Below are positions 27,595 to 38,695 of a stretch of 64,000 bases of DNA, piece by piece (positions within the stretch are counted from its first letter, which is position 1; each line of letters opens with the position of its first letter). The DNA lies in IMG/VR virus record IMGVR_UViG_3300009155_000035; one strand, written 5' to 3'. The translations under genes and the position numbers were made by a program. This stretch comes from a virus (Duplodnaviria; Caudoviricetes). The notes beneath the pieces are model-generated. The model did not search any database and had not been told where the DNA came from. It was given only the letters and a program-made list of their open reading frames with translations.

Positions 27595-29169
27595 GTGGCC
27601 ATAGTACAGATTTCAAGAATAACCAATCGTAAGGGTGCAACCGATAATTTGCCACAGCTGGCAGGTGCTGAGCTTGGGTGGTGTATTGACAGTCGTCGAC
27701 TGTTCATTGGCAATGGTACTTTGCAAGAAGGTGCCCCGGTTATTGGGAACACAGAAATCCTTACAGAATTTTCTGATATTACAGTTTTAAGTAACTACAC
27801 ATATCAAGATGTAGCTGTTGGATATATTGCGGAAACTGGCCCAAGCGCCAGCGACCCCACAATACGAACAGTACAAGCCAAACTTGATGATCAAGCTTGT
27901 GTGCGCGATTTTGGTGCAGTAGGTGATGGCATAACCGATGACACCGCAGCCATTAATCGAGCACTGTACCAACTGTATTGCCGAGAGTCAAATCCACAAA
28001 TTAGAAGAAGTTTGTTTTTCCCAGCTGGTGTTTACTTGGTCACAGAATCTATTGTGATCCCAACTTATGCCAAGTTGATTGGCGAAGGTGCCGATTGCAG
28101 CGTTATTCTATTGTCTACTGATGACAGCTCAATACCGGACTATGTTGCACAATATGGAGATAGTAGACTACAAACAGGCGTTAACATTGGTACCAATGGA
28201 GCCACACCACCTAGAAACATTGAAATTAGCTCAATGTCATTTCAATCAACTAATGTCACTGATATATTCTTGGTCAACTCTGCCACACAATGTTGGTTTG
28301 ACAGTGTGAATTTTATTGGCCCAGTTACACAAACTGAAATTGAAGACAACGGATCAACCCCACTACCAGAAATTACTGGTGTGTCATTTGCTAGTAACGG
28401 AAGTCTTGTAACCAACGACATTACATTTGATAAATGCGGATTTAGCAACATCACCACCGGTATTGGTACCGGCAATGTTATTCGAGCAGTCACTGTAAGC
28501 AACAGCAAATTCAATATACTGTTTCAAGGCATTGTGCTAACCAATGACGGTGACGGCGGAGCAACTGGATTTAGATCAGTGCATAACATGTTTGACAATA
28601 TCTATGCTGAAGGTATTGTATATGATGACGTTAGTTTAAATGCATCGGCATATAACGTTTTTTACAATGTTGGTAATAGTATTGGTAGTGAAACACCCAC
28701 AGGCCCTGTGATTACTTTTACAAATGACATTTGTGTATCTATCAATGACTTATTTGAACGCAGTGATGCAGATGCGTTCACCTACCCTAGAATATCTATA
28801 AGTAACACTAGTTCTTCAACTGGTGGAACTCAATTAACGTTGGGTCGTTATACTCAAGAAAATGGTAAAACGTTTACACTTCAAAATGGTGTGTCCGGAC
28901 AACCAATTTTTAATGTGAACCTAACATACACGAAAGCATTTCAAATGGAATATACAATTACTCGAGACACTGATGTTCGTCATGGTGTATTTGTAGTGGT
29001 ACCATCTACAACAGGTACAGATCCCGCATACACAGATGACTTTACAGAATTTGGTAGCGTAGGGATTGAACTCTCAGCAATACAATCCGGAACACAAGTG
29101 TCCGTTGAATATGATTCAACAGTTAGCTTGCCCGGTACCTTAACTTATACCTTATCATATTTGGCCTGA
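27595..29169 (+). CDS. Tail fibre/spike-like protein with pectate-lyase-3-like beta-helix
   Basis: N-terminal GAELGWCIDSRRLFIGNG; VRDFGAVGDGITDDTAAINRAL; FFPAGVY; TAAATA at 27568. Confidence 0.7.
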   Translation: MAIVQISRITNRKGATDNLPQLAGAELGWCIDSRRLFIGNGTLQEGAPVIGNTEILTEFSDITVLSNYTYQDVAVGYIAETGPSASDPTIRTVQAKLDDQACVRDFGAVGDGITDDTAAINRALYQLYCRESNPQIRRSLFFPAGVYLVTESIVIPTYAKLIGEGADCSVILLSTDDSSIPDYVAQYGDSRLQTGVNIGTNGATPPRNIEISSMSFQSTNVTDIFLVNSATQCWFDSVNFIGPVTQTEIEDNGSTPLPEITGVSFASNGSLVTNDITFDKCGFSNITTGIGTGNVIRAVTVSNSKFNILFQGIVLTNDGDGGATGFRSVHNMFDNIYAEGIVYDDVSLNASAYNVFYNVGNSIGSETPTGPVITFTNDICVSINDLFERSDADAFTYPRISISNTSSSTGGTQLTLGRYTQENGKTFTLQNGVSGQPIFNVNLTYTKAFQMEYTITRDTDVRHGVFVVVPSTTGTDPAYTDDFTEFGSVGIELSAIQSGTQVSVEYDSTVSLPGTLTYTLSYLA

Positions 29170-33061: not shown

Positions 33062-33327
33062 TGTTAACAGTATATTCTAAAAATCATTGCCCGTTTTGTG
33101 ATCAAGCAAAAGCCCTGCTTGAAAAATGGGAAATACCTTTTGAAGAAGTAAAAATCGATGCTGATGATTCTGCTCGAGAATTCATAGTCGGTGCCGGGCA
33201 CCGAACAGTCCCACAAATTTACCATGAAGGCAAATTATTTGTTGACGGTGGGTTTCAAGGTTTAAGTAAGCTGACTGCAGACAATGTCAAAGAACGTCTG
33301 GGACTTACTAACTTAGGAACTCTATGA
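33061..33327 (+). CDS. Glutaredoxin
   Basis: CPFC and HRTVPQI; follows nrdB. Confidence 0.92.
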   Translation: MLTVYSKNHCPFCDQAKALLEKWEIPFEEVKIDADDSAREFIVGAGHRTVPQIYHEGKLFVDGGFQGLSKLTADNVKERLGLTNLGTL

Positions 33328-33626
33328 ATATCGAATCAAACAAAGTTTTTATTTTTAAACTAATCACCAGCGAAGAAATTGTAGCTCGAGTTGAAGAACA
33401 ACACCAGGACTTTTTAGTACTTTCACATCCCATTACCATGGTTGTAACACAACAAGGGTTACAAATGATACCTAGTTTATTTTCCGCAAATATTGAAGCA
33501 AATGTACAGCTAAATAAAAGCAGTATTTCAATGGTAACTGAACCCAGGGAAGATATTGCTGACAGTTATCGTCAAGCAACAACTGGTATTTCAGTACCGC
33601 CAAGAAAACAAATTATTACAGGATAA
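33324..33626 (+). CDS. Hypothetical phage protein (possible Sm-like fold)
   Basis: FKLITSEEIVARV pattern. Confidence 0.55.
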   Translation: MNIESNKVFIFKLITSEEIVARVEEQHQDFLVLSHPITMVVTQQGLQMIPSLFSANIEANVQLNKSSISMVTEPREDIADSYRQATTGISVPPRKQIITG

Positions 33627-33631
33627 CTTTA

Positions 33632-33901
33632 ATGCCAGCAGTGTGCAGACTTGGCGATCCAGACAACGGCAAGGGTCGAATTCTTGAGGGTGTAAATTCC
33701 GTGTATGTCAATGGCAAACCCATTGCCGTCGTTGGAGCCAAGGTAAGTCCTCATGGTAAAGGTAAGCATCGATCTGCTAAAGTACAACAGGGAAGTGGCA
33801 CGGTATTTGCCGGTGGCAAAGCAGTAACTTTTGTTGGCGCCATGGACAATTGCGGACATACTAGAAGCTCTGGCAGTGGCGATGTATTTGTGGGCGGTTG
33901 A
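33632..33901 (+). CDS. PAAR-like spike tip protein
   Basis: PAVCRLGD, VYVNGKPIAVVG, PHG...H, DNCGH...GSGDVFVG. Confidence 0.85.
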   Translation: MPAVCRLGDPDNGKGRILEGVNSVYVNGKPIAVVGAKVSPHGKGKHRSAKVQQGSGTVFAGGKAVTFVGAMDNCGHTRSSGSGDVFVGG

Positions 33902-36900
33902 CCATGGGTGCATTGTCATCAGTGATGGCCACTGCTGGTGCAGGTTTATTACCTAATCCCCCTCAGGATGTTGGCACCACAATAATCGCACCAAACAACA
34001 TTGCAAATGCTGTGGCAACATATGGCAATGTTTCAATTATATCAACATTTCAAAGTATTTGCTCTACTGCACTAGGTGCAGTAAGTGGCGGAAATCTATC
34101 TCAAACAAACTTATTAGGCTTGTTGGCCCTGGGCTCCAACACATTCCCTGCACTAACCAGTGTGTTACCGGAAAATACCGCACCCACTAGTGTACTGGTT
34201 TCTGGTTTAGCTAGCCCCTGGGACAGTTCTATTTCTTACATAGCCGGCGACGTAGTTTCCTATAATGGCAATGTGTTTATTGCCAAGGTTGCAAGCAAAA
34301 ATCAAACACCCACAACTGGCACATACTGGAATCTTTACATTGTATGTTATAGCTTACCAACGGTTGTTGGAATTGATTCAACAACAGTGTCCGGCAACGG
34401 GGACCAGTCAAAATTTTGTCAAGCTTTTATGGCTGCTCAGGGATATATTTCCCAGGCCAATGCAACTATTAATTCAGTAAAAAACAGTGCGATCTTGGCC
34501 GAAACATTTACACCAGCAAATGGTGGCATGGACAATTTGACCACTGGTGGGTTGAATCAAGTAACCAGCGACATTGCCGGGCTTGGTGCAGATTTAAAGA
34601 AACTGGGAAACTTGATTAATCTAGCACAGTTGGATTATTGGGGACTGCCTGGAGAGTTGTTGGCACAACTTGGGCGTGTGGGCAATGGTATATTACCAGG
34701 GCTGGCCACTCCATTAACCACTGCCGGTATAACAACACAACAAATTTCCAGTTTGTCCAAAGGGTCAAACACACTAGATGCGCAAGCAGAAAAAACTGCA
34801 TATACAGTAATGACAAAAATCACTGGGTCGGTTCTTTCCCAGGTACTAGCTGTGTTTGGGGTTACAACTAGTAACATAGCCAACATGGCACAGTTGTTGA
34901 ATCCAAAAGTTATAATGCCAACTGCTTACAGCAAATTGTTGTGTCCAACAAAAGATGGACTTGTGCCAATCTATGTCAACGGCGCCACAAATCAAAATCT
35001 AATTACCACAGTAGACGATGCCAACATCGTTGCTTACTCGGGACAAACTGGTACCAATGGTTACAACACACTTAAATTAATTACTCCACCAGATCAAGCC
35101 CTGGCAAACAAAGCATTTGCCCAAGCAATGCAACAGGTAAAAAATGTTTCAACATCGTTGTTGCCTGGTATTAGCACAGCAATGTTGGCGGTAGAATCAA
35201 ACACTGGATTGACTGCGGTTAAGAATTTGACCAAACCAGTTCCGGCCACTGTGATTACTGCATACCAACAACAATTAGGTCAAGGATCGGGTCCTAACGG
35301 CACACTGGTTATTGGTGACATTTTGGGAGTAGCATATAAAGAATCTATTTCCACTAGCCTTACCACTATTGCCAACGCAGTTTCTTCCATTAGCGCATCT
35401 TCTCTCAACAGTGTTTATACCAATATGTCAGATACCTTGGCTGGTACATTTGGGCCATCAACTGGTCCTGTGATTATCCCCAGTGGTCCCGGAGCTGGTA
35501 CGTACACTACCTGGAACGAAGCATTTAGTACAGCATTGACACCAGCGGCTGCCTCGGCAATTTCTACTATTGCATCCAGTAATGCCAGCAAGGTGACTGC
35601 AACCAATACCCAGTATACTTCAATTATAACCGAAATCGTTAAAGAAATAACAAATCAAAACCGAGCACAAATTGATTTTACTGCGTTCGAAGCTAATTCA
35701 ACTTCGAGCACAATGAGTTTTTCAACAAACTTACATGAGTATGGAAACGATCCAGACGCAAATGATGTTTTGCTCAAGTTTACTAACACCGCTACACTAG
35801 GTGGTCAGTCGTTGATTAGTAGTTTGCGCGAAGGCAGAAACATCGAAGCATTGCAAAATGCTGGAATCAAGCTTGACACACAACTAGACTCTGCTCCGGG
35901 ACCGGTGATTAGCAACACAACAACATCTGCAACACCTTGGTCTCGGGCATCACAGTATTGGAGCAGAAGCTCCACGCTATCAAACACTTTTCGAAACTGG
36001 GGCATTTTACGCTCGTGGAAAGGGCAACAGATTCCAAATTGGGGATCAGACGGCACCACAGAACAGACTGGCACAGTATCCGTAAAGGCCAGTGGTACCA
36101 ATGTGGATGTTGTTATTGTTGATGCAGTGCTTGATCCTGCACATCCTGAGTTTGCAGTAAATGCAGATGGTACAGGTGGATCACGAGTAAAATACTACAA
36201 CTGGTTTGATGCAAATATACCGGGCGATCCCTCTGCTGGTAGTCGATATAACCCACCCATAACAACCAATGCACCGAGTTCTGCTGATGACAGCAGGCAT
36301 GCTTGCCATGTAGCCGGCATCGCAGTCGGAAACACACAAGGGTGGGCACCAAAGGCAAACATTTTTAACATATCACCCCAGTATGTAACTGGTGGTGTTC
36401 CTTATTTGTATTTGTATCAGTACATATTGGCCTGGCACAACAAAAAGAAAGCCACTGGCAACACCAATCCAACTATTCTCAACAACAGTTGGTACAGTCG
36501 TTACACAATTCCTTATACCAGCATTACTTCCTTGACATATCGAGGAGTAACTTACGCAGGGCCGTTTACTCTTGTTCAACTGTTGGGCTATGGCATTACC
36601 AATGATGGGGCTGGTAACTGTATTGTTGCCCTGCAAAATTCAACTATGGATGCACAAATAAAAGCATGTATCAACGCCGGTATTATTTTTGTAGGATGTG
36701 CTGGCAATAACGATACAAGAATTGCAACATCCAGTGATGCAGACTTTAATAACACATTGACTGCCACCGGCTTCAATGGCGGCAGTCCAATTTATTATGC
36801 TCGTGGTAGTTCGCCAGTTGCCACACAAAATGTTATATGTGTTGGCGCAATTCGCGCACCAAAGAATGATGGCAAGGCTAGTTCAAGTAACTGTGGTCCT

Positions 36901-37236
36901 CGTGTTGATTTGTTTGCACCTGGTGCATTCATTACCAGCGCCTGGCTGACTGCCAATGGTGCATCCGGACAACCTACTCCGGTACCAGATCCAAGAAACA
37001 CAGCTTATTACATTGGCAAGGATACTGGAACCAGCATGGCAGCTCCGCAGGTCACTGGCATACTTGCCGCGGCATTGGAGGTCAACCCAACCATGACACA
37101 AGCACAAGCATTGGCATACATTCAAAATGCGGCTGCACCAAATCAAATCCCGGATACTGCAGGCGGATATGCTGATACATTCAGTTTACAAGGAGCACCA
37201 AACAAATATCTTGCACTACCATCTGATTTAAAGTAA
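33898..37236 (+). CDS. Large virion-type protein with CBM5/12-like module and C-terminal subtilisin (S8) domain
   Basis: WDSSISYIAGDVVSYNG...YW module; IVDA, HACHVAG, GCAGN, GTSMAAPQVTG; start may be ATG 33904. Confidence 0.75.
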   Translation: MTMGALSSVMATAGAGLLPNPPQDVGTTIIAPNNIANAVATYGNVSIISTFQSICSTALGAVSGGNLSQTNLLGLLALGSNTFPALTSVLPENTAPTSVLVSGLASPWDSSISYIAGDVVSYNGNVFIAKVASKNQTPTTGTYWNLYIVCYSLPTVVGIDSTTVSGNGDQSKFCQAFMAAQGYISQANATINSVKNSAILAETFTPANGGMDNLTTGGLNQVTSDIAGLGADLKKLGNLINLAQLDYWGLPGELLAQLGRVGNGILPGLATPLTTAGITTQQISSLSKGSNTLDAQAEKTAYTVMTKITGSVLSQVLAVFGVTTSNIANMAQLLNPKVIMPTAYSKLLCPTKDGLVPIYVNGATNQNLITTVDDANIVAYSGQTGTNGYNTLKLITPPDQALANKAFAQAMQQVKNVSTSLLPGISTAMLAVESNTGLTAVKNLTKPVPATVITAYQQQLGQGSGPNGTLVIGDILGVAYKESISTSLTTIANAVSSISASSLNSVYTNMSDTLAGTFGPSTGPVIIPSGPGAGTYTTWNEAFSTALTPAAASAISTIASSNASKVTATNTQYTSIITEIVKEITNQNRAQIDFTAFEANSTSSTMSFSTNLHEYGNDPDANDVLLKFTNTATLGGQSLISSLREGRNIEALQNAGIKLDTQLDSAPGPVISNTTTSATPWSRASQYWSRSSTLSNTFRNWGILRSWKGQQIPNWGSDGTTEQTGTVSVKASGTNVDVVIVDAVLDPAHPEFAVNADGTGGSRVKYYNWFDANIPGDPSAGSRYNPPITTNAPSSADDSRHACHVAGIAVGNTQGWAPKANIFNISPQYVTGGVPYLYLYQYILAWHNKKKATGNTNPTILNNSWYSRYTIPYTSITSLTYRGVTYAGPFTLVQLLGYGITNDGAGNCIVALQNSTMDAQIKACINAGIIFVGCAGNNDTRIATSSDADFNNTLTATGFNGGSPIYYARGSSPVATQNVICVGAIRAPKNDGKASSSNCGPRVDLFAPGAFITSAWLTANGASGQPTPVPDPRNTAYYIGKDTGTSMAAPQVTGILAAALEVNPTMTQAQALAYIQNAAAPNQIPDTAGGYADTFSLQGAPNKYLALPSDLK

Positions 37237-37258
37237 TACTGTTGTACTACTTTAACGG

Positions 37259-37287
37259 TTGACAACTAATTCTAATTTCCGTATAAT
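37259..37287 (+). promoter_or_regulatory. Sigma70-type promoter
   Basis: GG-TTGACA-17bp-TATAAT, perfect consensus. Confidence 0.85.
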
Positions 37288-37315
37288 ACTAATACTTAAC
37301 TAAATGGAGATTTAG

Positions 37316-38695
37316 ATGGATGTGCTAGTGCTCAGCGATACTAAGTTTGATGGACAAAAATTGGCCGCAGGCTGGATTTACGACCTTGAAAGCAGTGACA
37401 GTCGAATTCACAAAGAAAAGGTGATTGAAAAAGCCTTGATGGCCGCAAAGTTAGGCAGTGCAGATGCACAATGTTTTTTGTTTAACTGTTACCAAGCATA
37501 CAATCCATTTTATACTTTTAATGTTAAAAAAGTGCCTGACAGCAAAGGTAGAACCGGATGCTTTAATCCTTGGACAAAATTTTGGGCCTTACTAGAAAGC
37601 CTTCGCACTCGCAGTGTCACTGGCGGCAATGCACGATCTGCCATTGCTGAACTCATGGAAGAGTTTGATAGTGATGAGTGGAATGATGTATGTGCCAGAG
37701 TAATCAAAAAAGACCTGCGCTGTGGCATTAGCGAAAAAACACTTAACAAAGTCCTGGGCAAAACCGAGTGGAAGATTCCCACATTCAGCTGTCAGCTCGC
37801 ACAAGACAGTACAGACCAACCCAAAAAGCTTCGTGGCATCAAACGATTAGAAGTCAAGCTTGACGGTGTTCGTGTGATTGCAGTAGTTTCTGGTACCAGT
37901 ATTGCACTGTATAGTCGCAATGGCAAAGTATTTGAAAACTTTCCACAAATTGAAGATGCTATTCGTGAACAACGCCGAGCATTTCAACATGGTCGAGGTA
38001 CCGGCGGCAACTTTGTACTAGATGGCGAGATTGTGGGCGAAACTTTTCAACAGCTCATGCGCCAAGCACATCGTAAATCAGATGCTCAAACTGATGGTAT
38101 GGTATATCATATTTTTGATATTATTCCGTTTGAAGCACTCAAAGAAGGCCATTGTAATTTACAACAACACAAACGAATTGAGTGGCTCGAAAGTGCTCGA
38201 AACGCACTAGCAGAAGAGACTAGTTGTTTGCGCATCATGAATGGGCTTAATGTAGATTTAGACACTGGCGAAGGGCATGACATCATGCGGCGTTTTGCTG
38301 ACGATGCTGTAGCCCAAGGCTTTGAAGGAATCATGATCAAAAGCATGGATGCACCGTATGAATGCAAACGCAGTGATTTTTGGATGAAATGGAAGCCCAC
38401 CATTACAGTGGACTTAAATATCATTGGCGTTGAAGAAGGCACAGGTCGTAACCTGGGCCGATTAGGTGCAATTGTTTGTGAAGGAGTTGATAATGGACGT
38501 CGTATTAATGTTAATGTTGGCAGTGGTTTGTCTGATAGCGATCGTGATGAATATTGGACCAACCGGGATGACTTACTTGGCCACATTGTGGAAGTCCAAG
38601 CAGACGCAGTCACCCAAAACCAAGACGGAACATACTCATTGAGATTTCCACGCTTTTTGAGATTCCGTGATTTTGATCCAGGAGATAAAATTTGA
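37316..38695 (+). CDS. ATP-dependent DNA ligase
   Basis: EVKLDGVR, LDGEI, FDII, EGIMIK, WMKWK, SLRFPRF. Confidence 0.93.
   Translation: MDVLVLSDTKFDGQKLAAGWIYDLESSDSRIHKEKVIEKALMAAKLGSADAQCFLFNCYQAYNPFYTFNVKKVPDSKGRTGCFNPWTKFWALLESLRTRSVTGGNARSAIAELMEEFDSDEWNDVCARVIKKDLRCGISEKTLNKVLGKTEWKIPTFSCQLAQDSTDQPKKLRGIKRLEVKLDGVRVIAVVSGTSIALYSRNGKVFENFPQIEDAIREQRRAFQHGRGTGGNFVLDGEIVGETFQQLMRQAHRKSDAQTDGMVYHIFDIIPFEALKEGHCNLQQHKRIEWLESARNALAEETSCLRIMNGLNVDLDTGEGHDIMRRFADDAVAQGFEGIMIKSMDAPYECKRSDFWMKWKPTITVDLNIIGVEEGTGRNLGRLGAIVCEGVDNGRRINVNVGSGLSDSDRDEYWTNRDDLLGHIVEVQADAVTQNQDGTYSLRFPRFLRFRDFDPGDKI

What the first reader, a model, noticed from the sequence alone, without database searches (positions are those of the whole stretch)
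33632..37236. PAAR spike tip coupled to a 1112-aa CBM + subtilisin fusion: a protease-armed baseplate?
Seen: the PAAR gene overlaps a giant ORF with a CBM5/12-like aromatic module (34213-34332), about 550 aa of Thr/Ala/Ser-rich structural-looking sequence, a linker (DSAPGPVISNTTTSATP), and an intact S8 set: Asp 36121, His 36298, Asn 36706, Ser 37033. Established: PAAR caps gp5/VgrG spikes, and in T6SS carries effectors; T4-like spikes usually carry lysozyme, not protease. Inference: a virion-bound protease for crossing an S-layer or protein sheath, or for maturation.
Basis: partly seen in the sequence, partly recalled or inferred. Interest (0 to 1): 0.75.

Follow-up and report, generated by a model that had tools for sequence, protein, structure and literature searches.

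The report
Phage spike-tip partner carrying a protease
A very large T4-like freshwater phage pairs its only spike-tip (PAAR) gene with a previously undescribed helical protein that here carries a sugar-binding module and an intact subtilisin-type protease, suggesting a protease-armed puncturing device; virion location and target are still untested.

Summary
A PAAR gene (33632-33901) is followed after 2 nt by an 1110/1112-aa ORF. That ORF has a CBM5/12-like module, a linker and an S8 subtilase with Asp742, His801, Asn937 and Ser1046 intact.

The fusion is not an artefact. At least 24 homologues at 40-89% identity from other samples share the architecture.

The conserved unit is not the protease. 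It is PAAR plus a ~630-aa helical protein of unknown fold: no Pfam or PHROG family covers it, and no PDB or AlphaFold DB fold matches it. PAAR lies directly upstream of it in 85 of 85 related loci.

The helical core is a carrier for swappable outside-type modules:
- 0-2 or more CBM5/12 copies.
- A TIG domain.
- S8, either at the C-terminus or inserted in a surface loop.

S8 presence needs at least 9 gains or losses on the family tree. A 99%-complete relative has no S8 at all.

The closest S8 relatives (57-61% identity) are fused to a T4 gp5 OB domain at the gp5 position of other T4-like phages. More distant ones (about 40%) sit in cyanophage baseplate clusters.

A T4-late-like ATAAATA motif precedes the pair in 36 of 62 non-redundant relatives, but not exactly in the window.

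Virion location, binding to PAAR and the substrate remain untested.

The parts
33324..33626 (+). 100-aa conserved protein (phrog_527, function unknown) between glutaredoxin and PAAR. It is syntenic in relatives. It is context only; membership of the unit is uncertain.
33510..33516 (+). CTAAATA, a one-mismatch version of the ATAAATA late-promoter-like motif, 122 nt before the PAAR ATG. A weak candidate.
   Evidence: Relatives have exact ATAAATA at about -118 to -122 (nominal, ORF starts approximate) or other positions upstream of PAAR.
33632..33901 (+). PAAR spike-tip protein gene (89 aa).
   Evidence: Pfam PF05488 at 44.5 bits and phrog_281. It is the only PAAR match in the 92.7-kb record.
33904..37236 (+). 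Gene for the PAAR-partner protein with CBM5/12-like and S8 modules. 1110 aa from ATG 33904; the alternative TTG start at 33898 gives 1112 aa. Residue numbers in this report count from 33898.
33904..35892 (+). Conserved helical core (residues 3-665) with no match to any known fold. It ends at the family-wide motif ...REGRN...LDTQL.
   Evidence: Alignments A1 and A2. Model pLDDT 92. No fold match beyond chance level.
34210..34338 (+). CBM5/12-like beta module (residues 105-147), an optional insertion in the core.
35893..35943 (+). Flexible linker (residues 666-682).
   Evidence: Low pLDDT at 668-675. Homologues without S8 stop 0-5 (a few 12-28) residues after residue 665.
35923..37233 (+). S8 subtilase module (residues 676-1112). 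Catalytic codons: Asp 36121-36123, His 36298-36300, oxyanion Asn 36706-36708, Ser 37033-37035.

Best explanation
The window comes from a T4-like jumbo phage, a fragment of a genome of roughly 340 kb.

Shown:
- Its single PAAR gene is tightly coupled to the gene for a ~630-aa helical protein, which forms a large, unnamed family.
- Different members of that family carry different modules at one loop near residue 100-150, at a loop near residue 376-384, or at the C-terminus. These are CBM5/12 copies, TIG, possibly PA14, and the S8 protease.
- In this phage the protein carries one CBM5/12-like module and a C-terminal S8 protease with all catalytic residues intact.

Inferred:
- The helical protein is made late and rides on the PAAR tip of the central spike as a one-per-virion carrier.
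- This places its binding and enzymatic heads at the first point of contact with the host envelope.
- The S8 head cuts envelope protein at the puncture site (surface layer, outer-membrane or periplasmic proteins), either before contraction or after the spike is driven into the periplasm. This would be analogous to the lysozyme on T4 gp5 and to effectors loaded on PAAR in type VI secretion.
- The protease is an accessory, probably host-adaptive, that is gained and lost often.
For: - PAAR lies directly upstream of the partner gene, with 0-5 nt between them, in 85 of 85 loci once a PAAR profile is used. This also holds for distant forms and where other genes have moved in (L009).
- A 345-kb, 99%-complete relative has only one PAAR gene, and it is the one next to the partner gene.
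- The clade has a T4 gp23-type capsid protein and the gene order gp5-like, gp25, gp6, gp7.
- The add-on modules are all of extracellular type and sit at surface loops or the C-terminus.
- CBM5/12-like modules of this kind occur in solved phage fibre and baseplate structures 8fqc, 9rkv, 8kec and 9b45.
- All 24 C-terminal and 2 inserted S8 forms keep the Asp, His, Asn and Ser residues.
- The inserted forms have S8 58-68% identical to the window's, while their cores are only 31-38% identical. This points to transfer of the module between lineages.
- The nearest stand-alone S8 relatives (57-61% identity) carry the T4 gp5 OB domain (E 8e-11 against 1K28) and occupy the gp5 slot before gp25-gp6-gp7-gp8.
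- More distant S8 relatives lie in baseplate or fibre clusters.
- ATAAATA precedes gp25 and gp6 in the relative. Its density is 43-fold higher in the 260 nt before the PAAR ORF than elsewhere in the same loci, and 36 of 62 non-redundant loci have it there.
- In bacteria, effectors carried by PAAR are preferentially encoded just downstream of the PAAR gene (PMC8651086).
Against: - There is no direct evidence that the partner protein is in the virion or touches PAAR.
- The pair sits among nucleotide-metabolism genes, about 120 kb from the spike gene in the complete relative.
- The window itself has no exact ATAAATA before PAAR.
- No PAAR-partner fusion protein was seen among the 383 proteins collected.
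- The related loci are not phylogenetically independent.
- The S8 part lacks a recognisable propeptide, and its model is only of moderate confidence.
- The host, and therefore the substrate, are unknown.
Confidence: 0.5

Rival explanations
1. The partner protein is a virion protein located elsewhere, for example at the baseplate periphery or on a fibre. The gene linkage to PAAR would then reflect only co-expression or an assembly role, not attachment to the tip.
For: CBM5/12, TIG and S8 modules also occur in peripheral baseplate and fibre proteins. The cyanophage S8 genes follow wedge or tail-pin genes.
Against: Perfect adjacency to the sole PAAR gene in 85 of 85 loci, far from all other tail genes, would be left unexplained. 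The closest S8 relatives are fused to the central spike protein, not to wedge proteins.
Confidence: 0.2
2. The protein is non-structural. It would be an intracellular or lysis-released protease/adhesin that acts on host proteins or the surroundings, encoded next to PAAR for historical reasons.
For: Its neighbours are replication and nucleotide-metabolism genes. The window has no exact late motif upstream.
Against: - PAAR is itself a structural tip protein, and the linkage is invariant.
- The late-type motif is strongly enriched upstream in relatives.
- The modules are of extracellular type.
- S8 relatives lie in baseplate clusters or are fused to gp5.
Confidence: 0.12
3. The S8 domain acts on the phage itself, either as a maturation protease or as a self-cleaving folding aid that is removed after assembly. 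The known model is the S74 C-terminal chaperone of tailspikes.
For: It sits at the C-terminus behind a flexible linker, and it has no propeptide.
Against: - In some relatives S8 is inserted inside the core, so removing it would cut the core in two.
- Most family members, and one complete genome, lack S8 altogether, so neither folding nor maturation needs it.
- It also occurs as a separate gene.
Confidence: 0.08
4. The fusion is an assembly or frameshift artefact that joins two separate genes.
For: None found.
Against: 24 homologues from JGI, ENA, NCBI and Logan data share the architecture at 40-89% identity. Nine of the fetched loci contain the fusion (L006 and L012-L018). A second assembly covers the junction without any difference.
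Confidence: 0.01

Closest known systems
T4 central spike: gp5 (OB domain, lysozyme, beta-helix) capped by gp5.4 (PAAR)
   Same: It is a contractile-tail phage of the T4 type, with a gp5-like hub/spike gene and a small stand-alone PAAR protein. It places an enzyme at the puncturing device. gp5.4 is the tip protein, and it matters for infection rather than for assembly (PMC12407873).
   Different: - The enzyme is a serine protease, not a lysozyme.
- It sits on a separate 1110-aa protein encoded next to PAAR, not on gp5.
- The PAAR gene is about 120 kb from the spike gene in the complete relative, not beside it.
- The gp5-like protein of the relative has no Pfam lysozyme hit.
Type VI secretion: stand-alone PAAR with an effector gene immediately downstream. 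General pattern in PMC8651086. V. cholerae PAAR2-TseH is cited from my own recollection, not checked here.
   Same: The gene order is small PAAR followed by a large enzyme-bearing protein. The heads are modular and swappable. Peptidase effectors are known in this setting.
   Different: This is a virus, not a bacterial weapon. There is no immunity gene. The conserved helical carrier domain has no counterpart in effector families. Binding to PAAR has not been shown.
gp5(OB)-S8 fusion proteins of uncultured T4-like phages (P0126-P0142, about 645 aa), found here
   Same: It is the same S8 subfamily, at 57-61% identity. The module starts at the same conserved motif, and the catalytic residues are kept in 13 of 15 representatives; two show Glu at the Asp column.
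   Different: There the S8 module is fused directly to the spike protein's OB domain at the gp5 locus. Here it is fused to the PAAR partner.
'Subtilisin-like serine protease' genes of T4-like cyanophages: S-H38 QPB07966.1, Sf-FR1 XYM58789.1, S-CREM1 UYA57622.1, and the S8 region of S-SCSM1 ORF228
   Same: They are homologous over the whole S8 module (28-44% identity), with the catalytic residues invariant. They lie in the tail or baseplate region. The S-SCSM1 record notes ORF228 as a virion protein.
   Different: They are stand-alone proteins of 550-570 aa with their own ~75-aa N-terminal segment, or are embedded in a 1411-aa structural protein. There is no helical core and no PAAR neighbour. 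Their function is also untested.
Subtilisin genes in staphylococcal phage tail-tip modules
   Same: An S8 protease gene next to the central tail spike gene of a phage, with an untested role.
   Different: Those are classical pro-subtilisins with an I9 propeptide, in phages of Gram-positive hosts. They are unrelated in architecture.

Membership tests
PAAR (Pfam PF05488), spike-tip proteins | Sequence match above the curated cut-off, in a small stand-alone protein | tested here: met
   44.5 bits against a cut-off of 27; 89 aa. phrog_281 at E 6e-17.
PAAR (Pfam PF05488), spike-tip proteins | Binds the blunt end of the trimeric spike beta-helix | not testable with these tools
   Only single chains can be folded here. 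A gp5-like gene exists in the complete relative.
Peptidase S8 (subtilases) | Family match and subtilisin fold | tested here: met
   Pfam 87.5 bits against a cut-off of 21.8. Foldseek probability 1.0 to subtilisin BPN' and proteinase K.
Peptidase S8 (subtilases) | Asp-His-Ser triad in that order, plus the oxyanion Asn | tested here: met
   D742, H801, N937 and S1046 align with the catalytic motifs of proteinase K and aqualysin. They are invariant in 24 + 2 homologues and in the cyanophage forms.
Peptidase S8 (subtilases) | I9-type propeptide that guides folding (typical of the family, not universal) | tested here: not met
   No Pfam hit ahead of the S8 domain. The helical core and a linker stand in that position.
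Peptidase S8 (subtilases) | Proteolytic activity | not testable with these tools
   Needs an enzyme assay.
CBM5/12 carbohydrate-binding module | Sequence match above the cut-off | tested here: inconclusive
   22.6 bits against a cut-off of 26.2, E 1e-4. Some homologues do have a precomputed PF02839 hit.
CBM5/12 carbohydrate-binding module | Small three-stranded beta fold of chitin-binding type 3 domains | tested here: met
   Residues 105-147 match 2d49 and AlphaFold DB chitin-binding domains at rmsd 1.1-2.3 A, TM by target 0.69-0.80.
PAAR-loaded cargo (type VI style) | Encoded immediately downstream of a stand-alone PAAR gene | tested here: met
   85 of 85 loci.
PAAR-loaded cargo (type VI style) | Physical binding to PAAR and delivery with the spike | not testable with these tools
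   Needs pull-down, cryo-EM or a multimer prediction.
T4 gp5-type spike protein | N-terminal gp5 OB domain | tested here: not met
   The window protein has no Gp5_OB or Phage_base_V hit. The OB domain is found only in the ~645-aa S8 relatives.

The most novel reading that the evidence does not exclude
Phages may have their own version of PAAR-mediated cargo delivery. In this reading, a conserved helical carrier of a so far unmatched fold docks on the spike tip and presents interchangeable heads (protease, sugar-binding, Ig-like), which are pushed into or against the host envelope at contraction. Together with the gp5(OB)-S8 fusions found here, this would make protease-armed spikes a widespread and undescribed alternative to the lysozyme-armed T4 spike.
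Probability: 0.35. Interest if true: 0.8.

Novelty: new variant of a known kind. Interest (0 to 1): 0.7.

Why it matters
Spike tips of contractile phages are thought to be bare, sharp points. Enzymes on the spike are known mainly as peptidoglycan hydrolases.

A conserved, family-wide partner of PAAR with swappable heads would show three things:
- Phages load cargo on the tip, as type VI secretion systems do.
- Some phages attack envelope protein rather than, or as well as, peptidoglycan.
- There is a new modular locus likely to be tied to host range.

The helical core is a large family: 2218 cluster representatives at E up to 0.001. It has no name, no known fold and no cultured representative in the phage collection searched. 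The gp5(OB)-S8 fusion gives a second, independent and directly testable case of a protease at the central spike.

Tried and rejected
- Megablast of the locus against isolated phages found no match. tblastn matched only the S8 part, so the core has no relative among the isolated phages searched.
- The helical core gave no usable match anywhere. ESM Atlas by features returned nothing. phmmer of a core-only homologue against PDB returned nothing even at E 10. Foldseek against PDB and AlphaFold DB clusters matched only the CBM module. The Atlas structure search gave TM of 0.23 or less.
- VIA-align wide gave a best Z of 6.5. The hits were helical bundles such as MLKL, CC-NLR, SPECT and YaxB. This is below the chance level stated for helical proteins, so I make no pore-former claim.
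- BFVD returned only uncharacterised 'uncultured Caudovirales' proteins.
- Exact TATAAATA and ATAAATA are not enriched in the window as a whole.
- No RNA holder was listed for the stretch.
- Loci from the look-up of encoding contigs could not be searched as whole records. The Gp5_OB family search rang nowhere, including the controls, so it says nothing.
- No psbA was found in five records, including the 99%-complete one, so a cyanobacterial host is not supported, despite haem oxygenase and bilin reductase genes in L009.
- The I9-propeptide look of the cyanophage N-terminal segment was not confirmed by Pfam.
- No PAAR-partner fusion protein was seen among the 383 proteins collected.
- The 'moraphage' paper describes a different lineage.
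- The text and supplement of PMC9602691 do not state explicitly that S-SCSM1 ORF228 was among the 45 proteins detected by mass spectrometry. Only the GenBank note says 'virion protein'.
- I considered a lytic transglycosylase reading of the all-helical core and dropped it, because there was no fold or motif support.
Full report
**What is in the window**

ORF listing and translation show an 89-aa ORF at 33632-33901, followed by a long ORF that ends at 37236.

The DNA reads ...GGCGGTTGACCATGGGT.... The PAAR stop codon TGA is at 33899-33901. A TTG at 33898 would overlap it by 4 nt, while an ATG at 33904 leaves a 2-nt gap. The closest homologue (89% identity) is 1110 aa long, so the ATG start is the likelier one.

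Pfam gives:
- PAAR_motif for the small protein, 44.5 bits against a cut-off of 27.
- Peptidase_S8 for residues 733-1087 of the large protein, 87.5 bits.
- A sub-threshold CBM_5_12 hit at residues 108-142, 22.6 bits against a cut-off of 26.2.

PHROGs gives phrog_281 (PAAR) and phrog_9158 (unknown function) for the S8 part. It gives nothing for the first 680 residues except a weak tail-fibre hit on the CBM region.

Asp742, His801, Asn937 and Ser1046 align with the catalytic motifs of proteinase K and aqualysin.

**Genomic setting**

The window is part of a 92.7-kb viral contig judged about 27% complete. Complete relatives are about 345 kb.

The neighbours are, in order: IscU/IscA, an exonuclease, a pectate-lyase-like tailspike-type protein, NrdA, NrdB, glutaredoxin, a 100-aa phrog_527 protein, then PAAR and the large ORF, then ATP-dependent DNA ligase, and further on ClpX, Hsp20 and ClpS. 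This order is kept in relatives at 34-60% identity.

The clade is T4-like:
- A 99%-complete relative (G001) has a gp23-type capsid protein at E 3e-100.
- It also has the gene order gp5-like (746 aa, Phage_base_V OB domain, no Pfam lysozyme hit), gp25, gp6-sized protein, gp7-sized protein.

That baseplate block lies near 222-224 kb in G001. The only PAAR gene of that genome lies near 102 kb, next to the partner gene. So the PAAR pair is not in the baseplate module.

**The fusion is real, and the protease is optional**

A search with residues 1-690 found 148 proteins. They fall into two groups:
- About two dozen proteins of 1077-1168 aa carry S8.
- Many proteins of 614-800 aa do not.

The proteins without S8 stop 0-5 residues (a few 12-28) after the family-wide end motif at residue 665. 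All 24 C-terminal S8 forms keep Asp, His, Asn and Ser.

Two proteins (P0097, P0106) carry the S8 module inside the core, between residues about 355 and 389. That position corresponds to the low-confidence surface loop at 376-384 in the model. Their S8 is 58-68% identical to the window's, while their cores are only 31-38% identical. The module has therefore moved between lineages.

On a maximum-likelihood tree of the core (71 rows), S8 presence needs at least 9 changes, 7 of them forced by well-supported branches. The 99%-complete G001 has no S8 homologue.

A second assembly of the probable source run spans 33500-37400 with no difference. It may be the same sample, so the homologues are the stronger evidence.

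**The conserved unit is PAAR plus a helical protein of unknown fold**

In 85 loci (5 from exact-protein look-ups, 80 from the viral collection), a PAAR ORF ends 0-5 nt before the partner gene. phmmer found it in 82 loci, and a PAAR profile found it in the remaining 3. The pairing also holds where unrelated genes have been inserted upstream (L009) and for divergent architectures.

A profile of the core finds 2218 cluster representatives at E up to 0.001 in 1.84 billion proteins.

AlphaFold2 models the core with pLDDT 92.2 and pTM 0.79, as a mostly alpha-helical globule. Searches with this model gave:
- Foldseek against PDB and AlphaFold DB clusters, and the Atlas search, matched only residues 105-147. 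These superpose on chitin-binding (CBM5/12) domains, and on such domains in phage fibre and baseplate structures.
- The best whole-library structural Z for the helical body is 6.5, which is within the chance range for helical proteins.
- BFVD holds only uncharacterised metagenomic phage proteins with this fold.

**The core is a carrier of swappable modules**

- The CBM5/12-like module is absent, single or double in different members. The ~800-aa forms have a further ~90-aa insertion just before it.
- Other members carry a C-terminal TIG domain, a weak PA14 hit in the loop, or long extensions without any family match.
- All recognisable add-ons are of the kind found on extracellular or surface-binding proteins.

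**Where else the S8 module lives**

More than 1200 proteins match residues 676-1112 at E up to 1e-10.

The closest group is about 645 aa long and 57-61% identical. Its members begin with a T4 gp5 OB domain:
- phmmer against 1K28_A gives E 8e-11 over residues 8-98.
- In a 37-kb contig the gene lies exactly at the gp5 position, just before gp25, gp6, a gp7-sized gene and gp8.
- Thirteen of 15 such cluster representatives keep Asp, His, Asn and Ser. Two show Glu at the Asp column.

Forms of about 540 aa lie in baseplate or fibre clusters of other large phages, next to gp9/10-like, Laminin_G_3 and CBM5/12 + He_PIG proteins.

In isolated phages only T4-like cyanophages match, and only in the S8 part. 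There the gene follows 'baseplate wedge subunit and tail pin', or the domain is embedded in the 1411-aa ORF228 of S-SCSM1. The GenBank record notes ORF228 as a virion protein. The paper reports a 45-protein virion proteome, but I could not confirm ORF228's inclusion from the text.

So the S8 module is tied to the tail tip or baseplate in at least three other architectures. One of them is a direct fusion to the central spike protein.

**Timing hint**

ATAAATA resembles the core of the T4 late promoter TATAAATA.
- In G001 it lies 12 nt before gp25 and 25 nt before gp6.
- In the window its + strand copies sit 8-70 nt before ORF starts at six of seven sites.
- In 36 of 62 non-redundant related loci it occurs within 260 nt upstream of the PAAR ORF. 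The density there is 2.23 per kb, against 0.052 per kb in the rest of those loci.

The loci are related to each other, so this is not a probability. The positions do differ between lineages, however. The window itself has only a one-mismatch copy, CTAAATA at 33510, which is 122 nt before PAAR.

**Interpretation**

Shown:
- Gene identities.
- The invariant PAAR-partner pairing.
- The modular architecture.
- Intact catalytic residues.
- The company the S8 module keeps.

Inferred:
- The partner is a late virion protein that docks on PAAR.
- It cuts host envelope protein.

Three points make this the most economical reading. In bacteria, cargo carried by PAAR tends to be encoded directly downstream of the PAAR gene (PMC8651086). 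T4 gp5.4 is the tip protein and affects infection rather than assembly (PMC12407873). The closest S8 relatives are fused to the spike protein itself.

I put it at about 0.5. The rivals are a virion protein located elsewhere (0.2), a non-structural protein (0.12), a self-acting or maturation protease (0.08) and an artefact (0.01).

A maturation or chaperone role fits poorly with the inserted forms and with the many S8-less members. The S-layer idea cannot be judged, because the host is unknown: there is no psbA in the complete relative, although one relative carries haem oxygenase and bilin reductase genes.

**Novelty**

I found no paper in the held library that describes a PAAR-linked partner family in phages, a subtilase at a phage central spike, or a function for the cyanophage 'subtilisin-like' baseplate genes.

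Earlier notes of this scan report subtilisin genes beside the tail spike gene of staphylococcal phages. Those have a different architecture and are also untested.

I class the finding as a new variant of a known kind. The known kind is an enzyme-armed spike, or cargo loaded on PAAR. What is new is an unnamed carrier fold and a protease in place of the lysozyme.

Noticed in passing
L095:7128-9059 (uncultured T4-like phage contig); proteins P0126-P0142: A ~645-aa protein joins a T4 gp5 OB domain, a short repeat and coiled-coil stretch, and an S8 protease. It occupies the gp5 slot directly before gp25-gp6-gp7-gp8. This looks like a spike protein with a protease in place of the lysozyme.
   Followed up: partly
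window 1243, 13632, 45032, 53953, 58468, 63018 (+ strand): ATAAATA lies 8-70 nt upstream of ORF starts at six of its seven + strand occurrences. The same motif precedes gp25 and gp6 in a relative, so it is probably the late-promoter core of this clade.
   Followed up: partly
window 27595-29169 (+): A 524-aa pectate-lyase-like protein (PF12708, weak Mtd_N, tailspike PHROGs) sits upstream of nrdA, with a 141-aa ORF between them, and is syntenic in all relatives seen. It is a second structural-looking gene inside the nucleotide-metabolism block.
   Followed up: no
window 33324-33626 (+); L005:9516-9728: A conserved 100-aa protein (phrog_527, unknown function) follows glutaredoxin. In many relatives an extra ~70-aa ORF lies between it and PAAR, and the ATAAATA motif often sits just before that small ORF.
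   Followed up: partly
L092 (G001:C1:193317-194306, - strand): The gp23-type major capsid match in the 99%-complete relative contains one in-frame TAA and is split into two ORFs. This could be an intron, an intein-free split or a sequencing error.
   Followed up: no
L035:5957-8074 and L042:5989-8106: In these two loci the partner gene is split into two consecutive ORFs (about 353 and 347 aa).
   Followed up: no
L094:10654-13545: In another large phage, a 963-aa protein with He_PIG, two CBM5/12 and Ig-like domains lies directly after a stand-alone S8 gene in the baseplate/fibre cluster.
   Followed up: no
contig carrying P0340 (no DNA fetched): A partner-family member with a C-terminal TIG domain is preceded by PAAR and followed by a Hydrolase_2 (SleB-like cell-wall hydrolase) gene.
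   Followed up: no
L009:16650-17868: A relative of this jumbo-phage clade carries haem oxygenase and ferredoxin-dependent bilin reductase genes. No psbA was found in five related records.
   Followed up: partly
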